DNA of 64,000 bases from a phage, in NCBI GenBank assembly GCA_012441205.1, contig GCA_012441205.1_4705.1, one strand, 5' to 3'. Each line of letters opens with the position of its first letter. Within the stretch, counting starts at the first letter, position 1. Positions 4,025-29,351 of this stretch are shown one piece after another. A program made the translations under genes and the position numbers. The notes under the pieces are model-generated. The model saw only the letters and a list, made by a program, of their open reading frames with translations. It made no database searches and had not been told where the DNA came from.

Positions 4025-6715
<2,691 letters not shown>

Positions 6716-6795: not shown

Positions 6796-7404
6796 TCAAG
6801 ACTTCACAACGCATTCGACTTCGTCGTTCATATAGGCTTCGTATAAAGACAGTACTTCCTTCATTTTAATTTCAGGTAACGCAACAGAACGAATCGCTTT
6901 CAGGATATTCCGTGTCTGATGATGTTTAACCTTCGCTTCACGTAGTTTACAGAATTGACGGATGCAGGTATTAACTTTACCACCTTCCGCACGTTCGAGG
7001 GCGACGTGCAGTTTCAGATCCAGTAATACTTCCGTGAGTTCCTGGGTGGCAGGATCGTTACGAATAAGTCGCACCGTCCGTTCATCCGGATTCAACATCG
7101 TGAGGAACTGAAGCTTGATCTGTTCAGGTACGGGTTTCGTGTTCATCATGATGGCGTCAAACTGTTCCTTAACATCCAACTCATTGAACACATAACGTTC
7201 GATGTGTACGACGTGTGCTTTTCCCGACTCACCGTAAATCGCCATCGCACGATAGTCATCGAACAACACGACATACATCAGATCTTGTTCCGGTCCGATG
7301 GTACCATCCATGAGCTTCGGGGCGTGTTTCCTAAAGAAGCCGTAGCGAACCGCTTCATCCGGCATGAGCGTCCACGCATTAACGGGCTGTTTTACGAGTT
7401 CCAT
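6796..7404 (-). CDS. hypothetical protein
   Basis: Start trimmed to ATG at 7404 (MELVKQ) preceded by GAGGTG. Confidence 0.45.
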   Translation of the reverse strand: MELVKQPVNAWTLMPDEAVRYGFFRKHAPKLMDGTIGPEQDLMYVVLFDDYRAMAIYGESGKAHVVHIERYVFNELDVKEQFDAIMMNTKPVPEQIKLQFLTMLNPDERTVRLIRNDPATQELTEVLLDLKLHVALERAEGGKVNTCIRQFCKLREAKVKHHQTRNILKAIRSVALPEIKMKEVLSLYEAYMNDEVECVVKS

Positions 7405-7687
7405 GTAACACCTCATCAAGATTATCACTTACGCCAGGCGGTACCACAATACCGGTACGAATCACAGCAGCAACTTCCTGCATGCCCTTACCCTTCAACG
7501 CATAGGTTTCATGTACCACATTACGTCGAGTCGTTAATCCAACAAATTTACATACAACCATGTTGTTTTCTGAAAGATAAGCGGTGTCGAGTTCACCGTG
7601 CAACAATTCTTTTTCTTTGGTATCAATACCTAATAACGCAATTTGATAAGCAGAAAGTTTCCAATAACGCATAATCGTCCTATTCAT
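7379..7687 (-). CDS. hypothetical protein
   Basis: 102-aa ORF in gene chain. Confidence 0.4.
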   Translation of the reverse strand: MNRTIMRYWKLSAYQIALLGIDTKEKELLHGELDTAYLSENNMVVCKFVGLTTRRNVVHETYALKGKGMQEVAAVIRTGIVVPPGVSDNLDEVLHGTRKTAR

Positions 7688-8507
7688 AAACTATCAAATA
7701 TTCTGAAACCAAGTTTCTTGTTTCTACTTTTGCCGAAATCGTTCTTCGTACAGTTACAGGGTACAATTTTGTCGCCGAACTATAAATCTCTTCAGTCAAC
7801 GCACAAGCACTGTTGCTAATGATTGTAGGAATTCCCCGCGAGCGCAAGTTGTCAGCCTTTTCTGCAAGATAACGATGATCGTCTAATGTAAACCCCTCTT
7901 GAGTATAGCCCGTAAACGATGCGGTGGGGGAAATGGGAATATAAGGAGGGTCGCAATAAACGACGTCACCCGGAACCACCTTTTCAAGATGCTTCTGGAA
8001 CCCACCACTTACAATTTCTACCCCCCCCCCCTCGACGAAGGCAGCCTGAAGATGGTTCGCTGCCAGACGCAATTCCTGTTTCGGGAAATAGACGGTCTTA
8101 TACCGCCCATGCGCAACATTAAATAAACCATCACGATTATAACGACATAAGCCATTGAAACCGTAACGGTTTAAATACATGAAGCAAACTGCGCGTTCCC
8201 ACGGATCTTCAGCGCGGTTAAAACGTTCACGTATCTCGTAGTAGCTTCTGACGTCGGTAGGATCCGTTTGAAAAAGACGTTCCACTTCTTCGATGAAAGA
8301 TTCTGGACGCGCTAGCAACGCAGACCATACTGAGAGAATATCCTCATTCGCATCACCTATCGAATACGCTGGGTACTTAAGAGCAAGCGTAACAGCGCCG
8401 GAACCAACGAATGGTTCAACAAGACGCTTTCCTTTAGGTAACACTTTTTCAATCTCAGGGATAAGCCTGGTTTTGTTCCCAAGCCATTTAAGAAATGTTC
8501 TGCTCAT
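7680..8507 (-). CDS. dam: DNA adenine methyltransferase (Dam-like, N6-adenine)
   Basis: N-terminal FLKWLGNKTRL...LVEPFVGSGAV (SAM-binding) and catalytic DPPY motif, as in E. coli Dam. Confidence 0.9.
   Translation of the reverse strand: MSRTFLKWLGNKTRLIPEIEKVLPKGKRLVEPFVGSGAVTLALKYPAYSIGDANEDILSVWSALLARPESFIEEVERLFQTDPTDVRSYYEIRERFNRAEDPWERAVCFMYLNRYGFNGLCRYNRDGLFNVAHGRYKTVYFPKQELRLAANHLQAAFVEGGGVEIVSGGFQKHLEKVVPGDVVYCDPPYIPISPTASFTGYTQEGFTLDDHRYLAEKADNLRSRGIPTIISNSACALTEEIYSSATKLYPVTVRRTISAKVETRNLVSEYLIVYE
8021..8031 (-). repeat. homopolymeric C11 tract (G11 on coding strand) inside dam
   Basis: 11 consecutive C at 8021-8031; in frame it encodes E-G-G-G-V. Confidence 0.9.
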
Positions 8508-8922
8508 CGATTGGCGTTCCGATAATGTTGATGACTATTTCCGTTCGAACCGGATTGGTCAGTACGGCCTGCATGCATTCAAGCATTGTTGGGTTATCCG
8601 TAACCACCACATCGGCGTAACACAACGGATGGCTTTCGAACGCTTCGGTATCACTTACTAACAGAACACCCATCACATTTACGTATTGCGGTATGCGACC
8701 ACGAATGCGTTGCCACATGTCTTGAGTAAGGTCCTCGCTTTCTAATGCAACCACAACAACAGGACTGATATTTACCGGAAAACGCGGATGCACCGTACGA
8801 CGAAATGTTATCCAGTTTTCGATGTGGGATAATGCAAGTTCGAGAGAACAGCATTTTGGAGAAATCTGTATGTTTATTTGTTGAATCAATGAAAGGGGGT
8901 TTTGTACAGTCGCTTCAGCCAT
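8488..8922 (-). CDS. hypothetical protein
   Basis: 144-aa ORF in gene chain. Confidence 0.45.
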   Translation of the reverse strand: MAEATVQNPLSLIQQINIQISPKCCSLELALSHIENWITFRRTVHPRFPVNISPVVVVALESEDLTQDMWQRIRGRIPQYVNVMGVLLVSDTEAFESHPLCYADVVVTDNPTMLECMQAVLTNPVRTEIVINIIGTPIDEQNIS

Positions 8923-12790: not shown

Positions 12791-13418
12791 TGATACCTTC
12801 TATTAGTTGTACAGCAACTTCTTTTTCGGTGCTATAAAAGAACTTGCGATGGAACTGAACAAGAAGTTTTTCGAATTTACATTGAACGATCTTTTTGCGT
12901 TCGATATGACCCAGGGAGAGCAAAGCACCCATGCAACGTACCGCTTGTTCGAGAACTTGTTTCGCGGTATCGTGATCGTCCGGTAACGGTAAATCTTCCT
13001 CATCGTCTTTAGCGATAAGGCGTCTGATGATGTTATCGATACGTATCTCATCACCGTTAATAAAAGCCCCCTTCTCCCAGTCATCGAATCGTTGATGGAT
13101 TCGACGTTGTAAGTTGGCCCTGTCTTCCATTAACTCTTTCAACTGGCTTTCTAAATGGGATACGGTACGGCGGTCGGTTTCAGTGAAGTTTTCCGATTCT
13201 TTGTACCACCAATCATTACGCGATAGTAAATCGTTAACGCGCGAAATCGTCCGACGACACTCACTAACAAGCCCGTCACCATTCGGTAGCTCTGTACCAA
13301 AATAGCATTTGTATTTATAACGCATAACACGGATTAAACGTTTCGCTAGAAAACCTTGCCTTTCCAGTTTCTTCTTCAGTTGTGTGTATTTCTCTTCTTT
13401 TGTTTCCATTAATTCCAT
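12777..13418 (-). CDS. hypothetical protein
   Basis: 213-aa ORF. Confidence 0.45.
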   Translation of the reverse strand: MELMETKEEKYTQLKKKLERQGFLAKRLIRVMRYKYKCYFGTELPNGDGLVSECRRTISRVNDLLSRNDWWYKESENFTETDRRTVSHLESQLKELMEDRANLQRRIHQRFDDWEKGAFINGDEIRIDNIIRRLIAKDDEEDLPLPDDHDTAKQVLEQAVRCMGALLSLGHIERKKIVQCKFEKLLVQFHRKFFYSTEKEVAVQLIEGINEVK

Positions 13419-13807
13419 GATGTTGTACCTCGTTCAGCAATCAGGAGAGTCGTGGTTGTGCTTTTCACTAATCTATTAAAGTCTTGATATATCCGCCTGA
13501 GGGATGATTTCAAATCACAATAACGGCTGAAATAAACCTTCAAGTCATCTTTTGTCACAGTCTCCGTATTTATTTTCGTAGAAACACCGAGATCGATAAA
13601 CTCTTTTCTTAATTGGGATAATTCATCAAGAAGTCGATGATGGCTTAGATAAATAACAGATTTATCGGATAACAACTCGCCGGTTATCCGGCTCTGGCGT
13701 TCATCGAAATATTGGAGCCGCCATTCAATTCGCTTACGTAATTTATCAAGTAAATCAACAAAAGCGGTATAGCTGTTAACGGCTAGGTTAACTTGACTCG
13801 TTATCAT
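13409..13807 (-). CDS. hypothetical protein
   Basis: 132-aa ORF. Confidence 0.4.
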   Translation of the reverse strand: MITSQVNLAVNSYTAFVDLLDKLRKRIEWRLQYFDERQSRITGELLSDKSVIYLSHHRLLDELSQLRKEFIDLGVSTKINTETVTKDDLKVYFSRYCDLKSSLRRIYQDFNRLVKSTTTTLLIAERGTTSWN

Positions 13808-27836: not shown

Positions 27837-29291
27837 ATGAAACTCAAACAAAGCTGGAAAGACGAACTTCTCGCGTTAGTAAACAGCAAAAACAGTTTAC
27901 AACTGACATTAGACGATGTAAAATTTGAACTAACGGCACCGGTAAGCGAAGTGCCTGGAACGGTCGTTGTTACAATCAAACCGAACGATAATAGTCGCTA
28001 CTTTAACGAGCAGTCTCTGACCTACATCCGTCGAGACATCGCTAAAAACTTCACCGGGATCCCGTTACGGGTTATCGTTAAGCAAGATACCGCTGTAAGG
28101 GATATCATCAATACGATTGCTGAACGTTACGGATTGGTATTTGACACAGCCGTCGACTTCCTCGAATCCGAGCTGAATAAACAAATTACGTTCGCAGACA
28201 CCGGTATTAAAGACATTACGGTTCCGGTTGCAAACACGTCTTATGTTTGGGCGGGTAATCTTCAGTTCAATATTGCTAACGATACGTTAAGCTTGATTAC
28301 TATCATCAAGAAAACCGATCTTACGAATCTGGTTTATCTGGATGGTGTTGAAGCTGACACATCTGGTTCGTTACTATTAGCAACCGCAGCACTTGTTAAC
28401 GAACACGTAAATGAACCGATGGTTGAAAACGAAGATATCGTTAATGAATTTATTAACGTTCTTAATACTCTAGCCAAATATGGTGACATAACCGGCGATG
28501 AATTAGATGCCGCCTTACAAGCGTACGATGAAGCAGAAAACAGGAATAAAACCACGGTAATAACTCTTGGTGATATCCAGTGTGTTGCAACAGAAAAAGA
28601 CGATTGGGAAATTGGACGTTTACGCGGTCAGATGGTTCTCGCGCTCAAATCCGATAAATACCCGGAGCCCGATAACACGTTCAGGTTGTTTACGAATGGT
28701 GGTGACGTATCGCTAACGTTAAACACAATGAAAGATATAAGTATCGATTGGGGTGATGGGAATAAAGTAACGTTGGATGCTGAAGAAAGATACGCGCACC
28801 ACACATACGCCGACAATAACCAGTACCAAATCGAAATTGTGTCTCGTACGGACCCAGATGTGCTGCGACCAAATTATATTTCTGGGAGTGAGATAACCGA
28901 AGTAATTCACTGGGCTACTACTTCAACAATAGCTCTGAATTTTGTTGGATGCGATAATTTAGCGACTGTTCCAGATGAGATCCCAACTTCGTGGACAACG
29001 TTGGACAGCATGTTTGAAAGTTGTACGAATTTGAATGATCCGTCTATCTCTAACTGGAATACAAGTAACATCACATCAATGAATGGTATGTTCGGCGGAT
29101 GCACTAAATTTAACCAACCTTTAGCTGCCTGGGATGTCAGCTCAGTAACTGACATTGGTGGTATGTTTAACGGATGCAACAGTTTTAACCAAGATTTAAG
29201 TGGGTGGCGATTACCGTCAGGAGTAACCCACGACAATTACGATAGTGGTGCTTTCTCGTGGCAGACGGAACATAAACCGACGTTCCAGTAA
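27837..29291 (+). CDS. DUF285-type repeat protein, possible adhesin or tail-fibre-like
   Basis: C-terminal repeats FESCTNLNDPSISNWNTSNITSMNGMFGGCTKFNQPLAAWDVSSVTDIGGMFNGCNSFNQDLSGW match the DUF285 repeat pattern. Confidence 0.5.
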   Translation: MKLKQSWKDELLALVNSKNSLQLTLDDVKFELTAPVSEVPGTVVVTIKPNDNSRYFNEQSLTYIRRDIAKNFTGIPLRVIVKQDTAVRDIINTIAERYGLVFDTAVDFLESELNKQITFADTGIKDITVPVANTSYVWAGNLQFNIANDTLSLITIIKKTDLTNLVYLDGVEADTSGSLLLATAALVNEHVNEPMVENEDIVNEFINVLNTLAKYGDITGDELDAALQAYDEAENRNKTTVITLGDIQCVATEKDDWEIGRLRGQMVLALKSDKYPEPDNTFRLFTNGGDVSLTLNTMKDISIDWGDGNKVTLDAEERYAHHTYADNNQYQIEIVSRTDPDVLRPNYISGSEITEVIHWATTSTIALNFVGCDNLATVPDEIPTSWTTLDSMFESCTNLNDPSISNWNTSNITSMNGMFGGCTKFNQPLAAWDVSSVTDIGGMFNGCNSFNQDLSGWRLPSGVTHDNYDSGAFSWQTEHKPTFQ

Positions 29292-29312
29292 AAAAAAAAA
29301 TAGTTAGCATAT

Positions 29313-29351
29313 CTTCCTCCCTACCCATAACGGGCGGGGAGGAAGGTTTTA
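29313..29351 (+). terminator. bidirectional terminator hairpin
   Basis: cttcctccc...gggaggaagg followed by TTTTA; preceded by an A-run; sits between convergent genes. Confidence 0.5.

What the first reader, a model, noticed from the sequence alone, without database searches (positions are those of the whole stretch)
8021..8031. In-frame homopolymeric G11/C11 tract inside the Dam methyltransferase gene
Eleven consecutive C (coding strand G11) encode E-G-G-G-V in frame. Tracts of this length are prone to slipped-strand mispairing; plus or minus one nucleotide would truncate Dam before its DPPY catalytic motif. This could be a phase-variable switch for phage DNA methylation, or a sequencing or assembly artefact.
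Basis: seen in the sequence. Interest (0 to 1): 0.45.

Follow-up and report, generated by a model that had tools for sequence, protein, structure and literature searches.

The report
Slippery G-run switch in phage Dam
A run of eleven G's inside the DNA-methylase gene of a giant, nucleus-forming E. coli/Salmonella phage changes length (10 to 13) between otherwise identical phage genomes, turning the gene on and off, so it looks like a real mutational switch and not a sequencing error.

Summary
C11 (coding-strand G11) lies at 8021-8031 inside a 275-aa Dam-family N6-adenine methyltransferase gene (7680-8507, minus strand). It encodes E-G-G-G-V, and it is the only G/C run longer than 6 in 64 kb (about 0.003 expected). 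The window is a ~94%-identical relative of the nucleus-forming jumbo phage Goslar, and dam is an 850-bp accessory insertion that Goslar lacks.

Goslar-like genomes recovered from public isolate and run assemblies carry the same tract as G10, G11, G12 or G13. These lengths occur on flanks that are identical or differ by 1-2 substitutions over 10.5 kb, on at least three haplotypes and in a second clade with 72% nucleotide identity. Only G11 is in frame. The other lengths stop after 162-175 aa, before the catalytic DPPY motif. Every OFF allele is intact once the tract is reset, and the post-tract codons are under purifying selection (pN/pS 0.13). Alleles with an interrupted tract (e.g. GGGAGGAGGGG) were all in frame except one, G6AG5.

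Best reading: a slipped-strand contingency locus that toggles phage Dam. This is a new member of a known kind (T2 agt, Campylobacter-phage polyG tracts, bacterial phase-variable methyltransferases). Within-sample heterogeneity, GATC specificity and any fitness benefit remain untested.

The parts
8021..8031 (-). G11 mononucleotide repeat (C11 on the + strand). This is the hypermutable element. It supplies the last base of GAG (E159), three GGG codons (G160-G162) and the first base of GTA (V163).
   Evidence: Relatives have G10-G13 at this position.
7680..8507 (-). dam: 275-aa Dam-family (D12 class, PF02086) N6-adenine DNA methyltransferase gene, intact and in frame in this window (ON).
   Evidence: AlphaFold2 model with pLDDT 91.
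7673..8522 (-). Segment absent from phage Goslar. The whole dam gene is an accessory insertion between the homologues of Goslar gp125 (window 8488-8922) and gp124 (window 7379-7672).
   Evidence: blastn of the window against NC_048170. An identical dam allele sits in diverged flanks.
8397..8411 (-). Motif I FVGSG (FxGxG, AdoMet binding), upstream of the tract. It is retained in the truncated OFF products.
7941..7952 (-). Motif IV DPPY (catalytic), 69 nt downstream of the tract. It is translated only when the tract length is 11 (or 8 or 14).
8018..8020 (-). TAG immediately after the tract. This is the stop codon used when the tract is G10 or G13 (162/163-aa products).
   Evidence: Seen in L014, L019, L021, L115, L117 and L029.
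7984..7986 (-). TGA used when the tract is G9, G12 or G15 (173-175-aa products ending ...GGGGRNCKWWVPEAS).
   Evidence: Seen in L023-L028, L113 and L116, and as protein P0135.

Best explanation
The G11 run is a real, hypermutable simple-sequence repeat (a contingency locus) in the coding region of an accessory dam gene carried by Goslar-like, nucleus-forming jumbo phages of E. coli, Salmonella and Shigella.

Shown: the tract exists as G10, G11, G12 and G13 in natural genomes that are otherwise identical or nearly identical. Only G11 gives the full 275-aa enzyme. All other observed lengths give 162-175-aa products that keep the AdoMet motif but lack catalytic motif IV (DPPY). OFF alleles carry no other lesion. 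The codons after the tract are under purifying selection. The pure run is kept in two clades that are saturated at synonymous sites. Alleles whose run is broken by substitutions were in frame, except one (G6AG5).

Inferred: the length changes arise by slipped-strand mispairing during phage DNA replication. This may be favoured because replication happens inside the phage nucleus, where host mismatch repair is probably excluded. Phage populations are therefore mixtures of Dam-ON and Dam-OFF genomes, whose DNA is or is not methylated, probably at GATC. Because the replicating genome is probably out of reach of the host's own Dam, the phage gene would decide the methylation state of progeny DNA. 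Switching would then hedge between conditions where methylated DNA is an advantage (for example restriction of unmethylated GATC, or methylation-dependent phage functions) and conditions where Dam is costly (methylation-sensing defences, or harm to a persistently infected host).
For: Identity of the gene.

Tract lengths measured in DNA with both flanks present:
- Clade 1: G10 in 5 samples, G11 in 10 including the window, G12 in 8, G13 in 1.
- Clade 2 (72.5% nt identity): G11 in 2, G12 in 3, G13 in 1.
- A third allele family: pure G11 (L131).

Same background, different length:
- L007 (G11) vs L027 (G12): 0 differences in 10,513 shared columns.
- L026 (G12) vs L029 (G13): 0 differences in 10,479.
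- L008 (G11) vs either of those: 1 substitution.
- Window (G11) vs L023 (G12): 2 substitutions.
- Different lineages differ by 180-860 substitutions over the same span.

One identical 828-nt dam allele occurs in 24 loci with four tract lengths and no other difference.

Sampling that does not depend on tract state, through the neighbouring gene, gave contig counts of G10 3, G11 9, G12 5.

Switch rather than decay: all 19 OFF loci become full-length ORFs when only the tract is reset. pN/pS is 0.20 before the tract and 0.13 after it.

Retention of the run: 64% of four-fold sites and 12 of 15 other shared Gly codons differ between the clades, but 0 of 3 tract codons differ.

Natural control: the GGGAGGAGGGG allele (P0143, 18 contigs; L004/L005, L119-L127) is always in frame, and no truncated partner appeared among the listed cluster members.

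Structure: the three Gly residues form the turn between helix 143-158 and strand 163-166, within a 7-residue insertion relative to E. coli Dam, so a variable Gly count is plausibly tolerated.

Precedent for the mechanism in phages: PMC12633550.
Against: No raw reads could be examined, so heterogeneity within one phage population and the switching rate are not shown. Consensus errors at an 11-13-nt G run in short-read assemblies cannot be fully excluded.

Several contigs end inside or just before the tract (L015-L018, L020, L022; P0139, P0141). That fits mixed lengths but also fits poor read quality there.

The other long homopolymer (A11 at 29290) also varies among relatives: 9, 11 or 12. So instability is a general property of long runs here, not something special to dam.

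Several lineages have lost the pure run (EGEG, EGKG, EGRG, GGA-GGA-GGG), so it is not universally maintained.

The statistical support for retention of the run is modest, p about 0.01-0.05 from three codons.

Look-ups by exact protein bias the ON:OFF counts and the set of backgrounds.

GATC specificity is inferred from about 45% identity to bona fide Dam enzymes, and one DNA-contact residue differs (E. coli P134 aligns with Ala).

No selective agent favouring OFF is known. The hosts are Dam-positive, so a defence aimed at methylated GATC is hard to imagine.
Confidence: 0.68

Rival explanations
1. Neutral mutational hotspot. The tract really does slip, but dam is a dispensable accessory gene. 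The ON/OFF mixture is unselected noise, with OFF genomes being recent dead ends, not a bet-hedging device.
For: dam is absent from Goslar itself. About half of the pure-tract genomes are OFF. The intergenic A11 run varies too. Several lineages replaced the pure run with interrupted versions. Interrupted alleles are sometimes inactivated by other lesions: P0166, P0169, and G6AG5 in L002/L003.
Against: Post-tract codons are under purifying selection (pN/pS 0.13), so the full-length protein is needed over time. No OFF allele has a second lesion. The pure run is retained in clades saturated at synonymous sites even though GGG is the rarest Gly codon. An identical dam allele has spread across diverged backgrounds.
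Confidence: 0.2
2. Technical artefact. The true tract has one length, and the G10-G13 calls come from polymerase stutter in library preparation, sequencing errors after long G runs, and assembler choices.
For: All data are short-read assemblies. Several contigs break in or next to the tract. L007 and L027 are identical apart from the tract and could be the same material assembled twice. The A/T run also differs between near-identical genomes.
Against: Four lengths were seen, in both directions from 11, whereas stutter mostly shortens a run by one. The same contig with the same length recurs in several samples: L026 (G12) in 4, L110 (G11) in 4, and the G13 form in 3 places. Assemblies from NCBI, ENA and Logan all vary. 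The 10.5-kb flanks of the matched pairs have essentially no other indels (one indel column in one pair), although they contain 5-6-nt runs. The window's tract is in frame in an otherwise intact gene.
Confidence: 0.08
3. Programmed recoding. The G run is a transcriptional-slippage or ribosomal-frameshift site, so one genome makes both a short and a full-length product whatever its DNA length.
For: Long homopolymers can cause RNA-polymerase slippage (general knowledge). Chimalliviruses use their own non-canonical RNA polymerases. Slippage could make OFF alleles leaky.
Against: The alternative frames end after 0 and 12 codons and encode nothing conserved. The variation is seen at the DNA level. 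In-frame interrupted alleles that abolish slippage are common and conserved.
Confidence: 0.04

Closest known systems
Phage contingency loci: T2 agt (alpha-glucosyltransferase) and T4 rIIA homopolymer switches (Gomez, Barrick & Waters, bioRxiv 2025, PMC12633550)
   Same: A mononucleotide run inside a phage gene for a DNA-modification enzyme. Shifts of plus or minus one base give reversible loss of function. In T2 the two states evade different defences: McrA/BC restricts agt-minus phage and TgvAB restricts agt-plus phage.
   Different: Here the run is G11, not an A run of about 9. The enzyme is an adenine methyltransferase. The phage is a nucleus-forming jumbo phage. The evidence is natural population polymorphism, not measured reversion rates. 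No counter-selecting defence is known. That paper does not mention Dam, methyltransferases or jumbo phages.
Hypermutable polyG tracts in Campylobacter Fletchervirus receptor-binding protein genes (Sorensen et al., Cell Rep 2021, cited in PMC12633550)
   Same: PolyG tracts of 7-11 in phage coding sequences that generate ON/OFF subpopulations.
   Different: Those tracts control host recognition in phages of a host that itself relies on polyG switching. Here the target is DNA modification in an enterobacterial phage.
Bacterial phase-variable methyltransferases (phasevarions): Type III mod genes of Haemophilus and Neisseria, and the polyG-controlled Type IIG cj0031 of C. jejuni (PMC13076061, PMC4889913)
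   Same: A repeat within a methyltransferase ORF switches the enzyme ON/OFF by slipped-strand mispairing and so changes genome-wide methylation.
   Different: Those are cellular genes, usually part of restriction-modification systems, and they regulate host regulons. This one is an orphan Dam on a lytic phage, and no regulatory role has been shown.
PolyG tract noted in a methylase gene of Bordetella phage BPP-1 (Liu et al., J Bacteriol 2004, as cited in PMC12633550)
   Same: A polyG run in a phage methylase gene.
   Different: I know it only through the citation, because the paper was not available. According to the citing preprint it was not studied further. It is a temperate podovirus and an unrelated enzyme.
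Phage-encoded Dam orthologues (T4/T2 Dam, P1 Dam; structures 1YFJ, 1Q0S) and E. coli Dam (2G1P)
   Same: Same enzyme family, with the same motif order FxGxG...DPPY. The match to E. coli Dam is full length at E 1e-68.
   Different: Those genes have no long repeat. The Goslar-like enzyme has a 7-residue insertion that holds the Gly tract.

Membership tests
Dam / D12-class N6-adenine DNA methyltransferase (PF02086) | Full-length match to the family profile above the curated threshold | tested here: met
   204.9 bits against a cut-off of 22, profile positions 1-253 of 253.
Dam / D12-class N6-adenine DNA methyltransferase (PF02086) | AdoMet-binding motif I (FxGxG) near the N-terminus and catalytic motif IV (DPPY) in the C-terminal half | tested here: met
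   FVGSG at aa 33-37 and DPPY at aa 186-189. Both are invariant in the 52-sequence alignment.
Dam / D12-class N6-adenine DNA methyltransferase (PF02086) | Close sequence relationship to structurally characterised GATC Dam enzymes | tested here: met
   E. coli Dam 2G1P/4GOL at E 1e-68 over residues 2-274; DpnM (2DPM) at E 9e-42.
Dam / D12-class N6-adenine DNA methyltransferase (PF02086) | Residues that contact GATC in E. coli Dam (K9, Y119, N120, L122, R124, P134; residue list recalled from the E. coli Dam-DNA structure paper, not checked here) | tested here: inconclusive
   In the alignment, K7, N118, L120 and R122 are conserved. Y119 aligns with F117 and P134 aligns with A132.
Dam / D12-class N6-adenine DNA methyltransferase (PF02086) | Methylates adenine in GATC | not testable with these tools
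   Needs a methylome or DpnI/DpnII digestion of ON and OFF phage DNA. The window has 272 GATC sites.
Simple-sequence-repeat contingency locus (phase variation by slipped-strand mispairing) | A long uninterrupted repeat within the coding sequence or promoter | tested here: met
   G11 at gene nt 477-487. About 0.003 such runs are expected by chance.
Simple-sequence-repeat contingency locus (phase variation by slipped-strand mispairing) | Repeat-length polymorphism between otherwise identical or near-identical genomes | tested here: met
   G10-G13 with 0-2 substitutions in 10.5 kb of flank, on at least 3 haplotypes. One dam allele shows four lengths.
Simple-sequence-repeat contingency locus (phase variation by slipped-strand mispairing) | Length changes switch the product between full-length and truncated | tested here: met
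   The truncated products are seen in databases.
Simple-sequence-repeat contingency locus (phase variation by slipped-strand mispairing) | OFF states are transient: no secondary lesions, and the gene is under purifying selection | tested here: met
   19 of 19 OFF loci are intact after tract reset. pN/pS after the tract is 0.13.
Simple-sequence-repeat contingency locus (phase variation by slipped-strand mispairing) | Reversibility and a high switching rate within a clonal population | not testable with these tools
   No reads or cultures were available. Indirect hints only: lengths both shorter and longer than 11 occur on one allele, and contigs break at the tract.
Simple-sequence-repeat contingency locus (phase variation by slipped-strand mispairing) | The alternative states have different fitness in different conditions | not testable with these tools
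   Needs locked-ON and locked-OFF phages tested on host and defence panels.
Phasevarion (phase-variable methyltransferase controlling a regulon) | Methylation state changes the expression of other genes | not testable with these tools
   Needs transcriptomes of ON and OFF infections.
Programmed frameshift or transcriptional-slippage gene | The alternative frame encodes a conserved functional extension | tested here: not met
   The alternative frames stop after 0 or 12 codons.

The most novel reading that the evidence does not exclude
A phage-borne epigenetic switch. The Goslar-like genome replicates inside a protein nucleus that probably excludes host Dam and mismatch repair. The slippery phage dam would then be the sole determinant of whether progeny genomes are GATC-methylated. 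The two epigenetic states might not only change exposure to host defences but also set phage gene expression or lifestyle, for example the persistent carriage in bacterial colonies for which Goslarviruses are notable, as against productive lysis. That would be a viral phasevarion.
Probability: 0.12. Interest if true: 0.8.

Novelty: new member of a known kind. Interest (0 to 1): 0.55.

Why it matters
If the switch is real, natural populations of a widespread group of enterobacterial jumbo phages are standing mixtures of methylated and unmethylated genomes. These are the Goslarviruses, now known from hundreds of isolate assemblies.

This matters for three reasons:
- **A natural example of phage bet-hedging.** It would be a population-level example of the recently proposed idea that phages use contingency loci, and it involves a DNA-modification enzyme.
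- **An open question about nucleus-forming phages.** Their DNA is thought to be shielded from restriction, so why keep and toggle a Dam at all? That makes the role of DNA methylation in chimalliviruses directly testable with natural locked-ON alleles (GGA-GGA-GGG) and OFF alleles.
- **A practical warning.** Annotation pipelines split or truncate this gene in about half of the genomes. Phage-therapy or typing work on these phages should expect heterogeneity at this site.

Tried and rejected
- **Phage collection.** Megablast of the dam gene found nothing. The best protein-level hit there is 44.5% identical, so no close relative exists among deposited phage genomes.
- **Complete E. coli genomes and PLSDB plasmids.** No match.
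- **IMG/VR.** 66 loci, all 44% identity or less, so uninformative for the tract.
- **GTDB species representatives.** No match to the tract-flank pattern.
- **JGI metagenomes.** The first exact-anchor scan found nothing. A degenerate anchor found 4 loci.
- **The 162-aa products.** I first read P0144 as evidence for G10, but six of its nine contigs simply end inside the tract. Those were excluded from the length tally.
- **First flank comparison.** It was inflated by unequal locus ends and was recomputed on shared columns.
- **A11 control.** I used the A11 run to separate technical from biological variation. It also varies, so it does not discriminate.
- **Burkholderia phage phiE125.** I recalled a poly-G methyltransferase frameshift there, but the literature search returned nothing I could read to confirm it, so it is not used.
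- **BPP-1 paper.** Not held.
- **Recoding.** Rejected because the alternative frames are empty.
- **GATC avoidance.** It gave no clear signal: observed/expected is 1.11 against base composition and 0.63 against a second-order Markov model.

Full report
**1. The observation**

Window 8021-8031 is C11 on the + strand, that is G11 on the coding strand. It lies in the minus-strand ORF 7680-8507 (275 aa) at gene nt 477-487. The codons read GAG GGG GGG GGG GTA, giving E159-G-G-G-V163.

The ORF is a Dam-family enzyme:
- Pfam PF02086 is matched over the whole profile (E 2.3e-60, 204.9 bits).
- It aligns end to end with E. coli Dam structures 2G1P/4GOL (E 1e-68).
- Motif I FVGSG is at 8397-8411 and motif IV DPPY at 7941-7952.

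The run is not a chance feature. The next-longest C run in 64 kb is 6 and the longest G run is 5. About 0.003 runs of 11 or more are expected. GGG is the rarest Gly codon in the window's long ORFs, at 14%.

Changing the run length in silico gives these products:

| Tract length | Product | Stop codon used |
|---|---|---|
| G8, G11, G14 | Full length, 274-276 aa | Normal stop |
| G10, G13 | 162/163 aa | TAG at 8018-8020 |
| G9, G12, G15 | 173-175 aa | TGA at 7984-7986 |

All truncated forms lack DPPY.

**2. What genome this is**

The first 25 kb of the window match Escherichia phage vB_EcoM_Goslar (NC_048170) at 94% identity over 89% of the length. Goslar is a nucleus-forming jumbo phage of the Chimalliviridae. 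The dam gene itself has no near match in the phage collection. Alignment to Goslar shows that window 7673-8522 is an insertion placed exactly between the homologues of gp125 and gp124. So dam is an accessory gene that the type phage lacks.

The window's exact Dam protein is on record from E. coli and Salmonella assemblies, on contigs of about 238 kb. This fits published work: Goslarvirus genomes are common in bacterial isolate assemblies, with 237 contigs reported in PMC12768965 and 59 "persistent" phages in bioRxiv 10.1101/2024.12.31.630880. Neither paper mentions a methyltransferase, homopolymers or frameshifts.

**3. Relatives show that the tract length varies**

A protein search found close relatives (92-93% identity) of 275 and 274 aa, together with many truncated products of 162-176 aa and C-terminal fragments of 99-113 aa. 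All of them break at the Gly tract.

I fetched the DNA and measured the tract only where both flanks were present.

Pure tracts:

| Allele group | G10 | G11 | G12 | G13 |
|---|---|---|---|---|
| Window's allele family (samples) | 5 | 10, including the window | 8 | 1, plus two similar places not shown |
| Second clade, 72.5% nt and 78% aa identity (samples) | none in DNA; G10 seen only as protein P0157 | 2 | 3 | 1 |
| Third allele family (L131) | - | 1 | - | - |

Six further contigs end inside the tract. NCBI "partial" proteins mark contigs that break 12-18 nt before it, including one contig of 243,103 bp.

Interrupted versions also exist:
- **GGGAGGAGGGG:** synonymous, still E-G-G-G, found in 11 samples.
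- **G5AG5:** encodes E-G-E-G.
- **G4AAG5:** encodes E-G-K-G.
- **G6AG5:** out of frame.

**4. Same background, different length**

Over about 10.5 kb of shared flank, with the tract excluded:

| Pair | Tracts | Differences |
|---|---|---|
| L007 vs L027 | G11 vs G12 | 0 |
| L026 vs L029 | G12 vs G13 | 0 |
| L008 vs L026 or L029 | G11 vs G12/G13 | 1 substitution |
| L009 vs L023 | G11 vs G12 | 1 substitution and 1 indel column |
| Window vs L023 | G11 vs G12 | 2 substitutions |

Different lineages differ by 180-860 substitutions over the same span. After resetting the tract, one identical 828-nt dam allele is shared by 24 loci that show four tract lengths. The tract therefore changes far faster than any other site, and it has done so repeatedly on at least three haplotypes and in two clades.

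Sampling through the neighbouring gene does not depend on tract state. It gave contig counts of G10 3, G11 9 and G12 5. So roughly half of the pure-tract genomes are OFF.

**5. Switch or decaying pseudogene?**

- All 19 OFF loci become intact full-length ORFs when only the tract is reset.
- Pooled pN/pS is 0.20 before the tract and 0.13 after it. The part translated only in ON phase is under purifying selection, so the enzyme is needed over evolutionary time and OFF states are young.
- Between the two clades, 64% of four-fold sites and 12 of 15 other shared Gly codons differ, but none of the three tract codons does. This is modest evidence (roughly p 0.01-0.05) that the pure run is retained.
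- The commonest interrupted allele (P0143, 18 contigs) is always in frame, and no truncated partner appears among the listed cluster members. Instability therefore tracks the purity of the run.

**6. Where the tract sits in the protein**

An AlphaFold2 model (pLDDT 91) places E159-G162 in the turn between helix 143-158 and strand 163-166, upstream of the strand that carries DPPY. The tract lies in a 7-residue insertion relative to E. coli Dam and the Shewanella-type Dams. A linker of this kind can plausibly accept two to four glycines, so G8 and G14 may also be ON.

**7. Is it an artefact?**

I could not inspect reads, so this cannot be closed completely. The evidence against an artefact:
- Four lengths occur, in both directions from 11.
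- Identical contigs with the same length recur in several samples (L026 in 4, L110 in 4).
- Variation appears in NCBI, ENA and Logan assemblies alike.
- The 10.5-kb flanks of the matched pairs have essentially no other indels: one indel column in one pair.
- The window's tract is in frame in an intact gene.

The intended control did not discriminate. The other 11-mer (A11 at 29290-29300) starts in a TAA stop codon and runs into the intergenic space, and it also varies: 9 in three relatives and 12 in one. Long homopolymers are unstable in these genomes generally. That fits slippage during replication in a compartment that probably lacks host mismatch repair (inference), but it would also fit technical noise.

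**8. Mechanism**

Shown: a hypermutable G run toggles dam between a full-length reading frame and catalytically dead reading frames.

Inferred:
- Slipped-strand mispairing is the cause.
- The enzyme methylates GATC. It is about 45% identical to bona fide Dams, and the recognition loop NRYGFNGLCRYN is conserved. However, E. coli P134 aligns with Ala.
- Host Dam probably cannot reach the sequestered genome, so the phage gene sets the methylation state of progeny DNA.
- The mixture hedges between conditions that favour methylated DNA and conditions that favour unmethylated DNA.

What would favour OFF is unknown.

**9. Comparison with what is known**

- **T2 agt and T4 rIIA.** Contingency loci in phages were proposed in 2025 for these genes. 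T2 agt is a DNA-modification gene switched by an A run, with McrA/BC and TgvAB as opposing selective agents (PMC12633550).
- **Earlier polyG reports.** That preprint cites earlier polyG tracts in Campylobacter phage receptor-binding genes and in a methylase gene of Bordetella phage BPP-1.
- **Bacterial systems.** Repeat-switched methyltransferases (phasevarions) are classical in bacteria.
- **What I did not find.** I found no report of a switchable Dam in a lytic or nucleus-forming phage.

This is therefore a new member of a known kind. Its natural population evidence is unusually clear, and its biological setting is interesting.

**10. Verdict**

Confidence that the tract truly varies in nature is about 0.85-0.9. 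Confidence that it acts as an ON/OFF contingency switch maintained by selection is about 0.65-0.7. Interest is moderate, at 0.55.

Noticed in passing
window 29290-29300: A second 11-nt homopolymer (A11). It begins inside the TAA stop of ORF 27837-29291 (+), lies between convergent genes, and sits next to a GC-rich inverted repeat (about 29311-29345). In close relatives the run is 9 (L102-L104) or 12 (L105). It is the only other run longer than 7 in the window.
   Followed up: partly
window 7673-8522; loci L006-L029, alignment columns about 5000-6000: An identical 828-nt dam allele sits in Goslarvirus backgrounds whose flanks diverge by 3-15% right up to the gene borders. This implies recent exchange of the dam cassette by recombination among mosaic genomes. 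The look-ups were by exact protein, so the set of backgrounds is selected.
   Followed up: partly
window about 4348 and 13408-13803: There are other gene-content differences from Goslar. Goslar gp120 (NC_048170 121396-122103) has no counterpart at the junction near window 4348, and window 13408-13803 has no Goslar match.
   Followed up: no
proteins P0166, P0169; loci L002/L003: Alleles with an interrupted ('locked') tract are sometimes inactivated in other ways: an 18-aa internal deletion (P0166, 257 aa), a frameshift just after DPPYIPI (P0169, 230 aa), and a G6AG5 frameshift (L002/L003). This suggests that loss of Dam is at times tolerated or favoured.
   Followed up: no
proteins P0139, P0140, P0141, P0142; loci L015-L018, L020, L022, L030: Assemblies often break at or a few bases before the tract, including a 243,103-bp contig that is otherwise a complete phage genome. 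This is consistent with mixed tract lengths, or with poor reads, inside single samples.
   Followed up: partly
hit H24/H25 (phage phi80, JX871397 26515-27310): Phage phi80 carries damL, annotated as a DNA adenine methylase pseudogene disrupted by a frameshift. I did not check whether that frameshift sits in a repeat.
   Followed up: no
whole window: The window belongs to the Goslarvirus group, which is recovered mainly from E. coli, Salmonella and Shigella isolate assemblies rather than from phage isolations. This matches the 'bacterial assembly-associated' or 'persistent virulent' phages described in PMC12768965 and bioRxiv 10.1101/2024.12.31.630880.
   Followed up: partly
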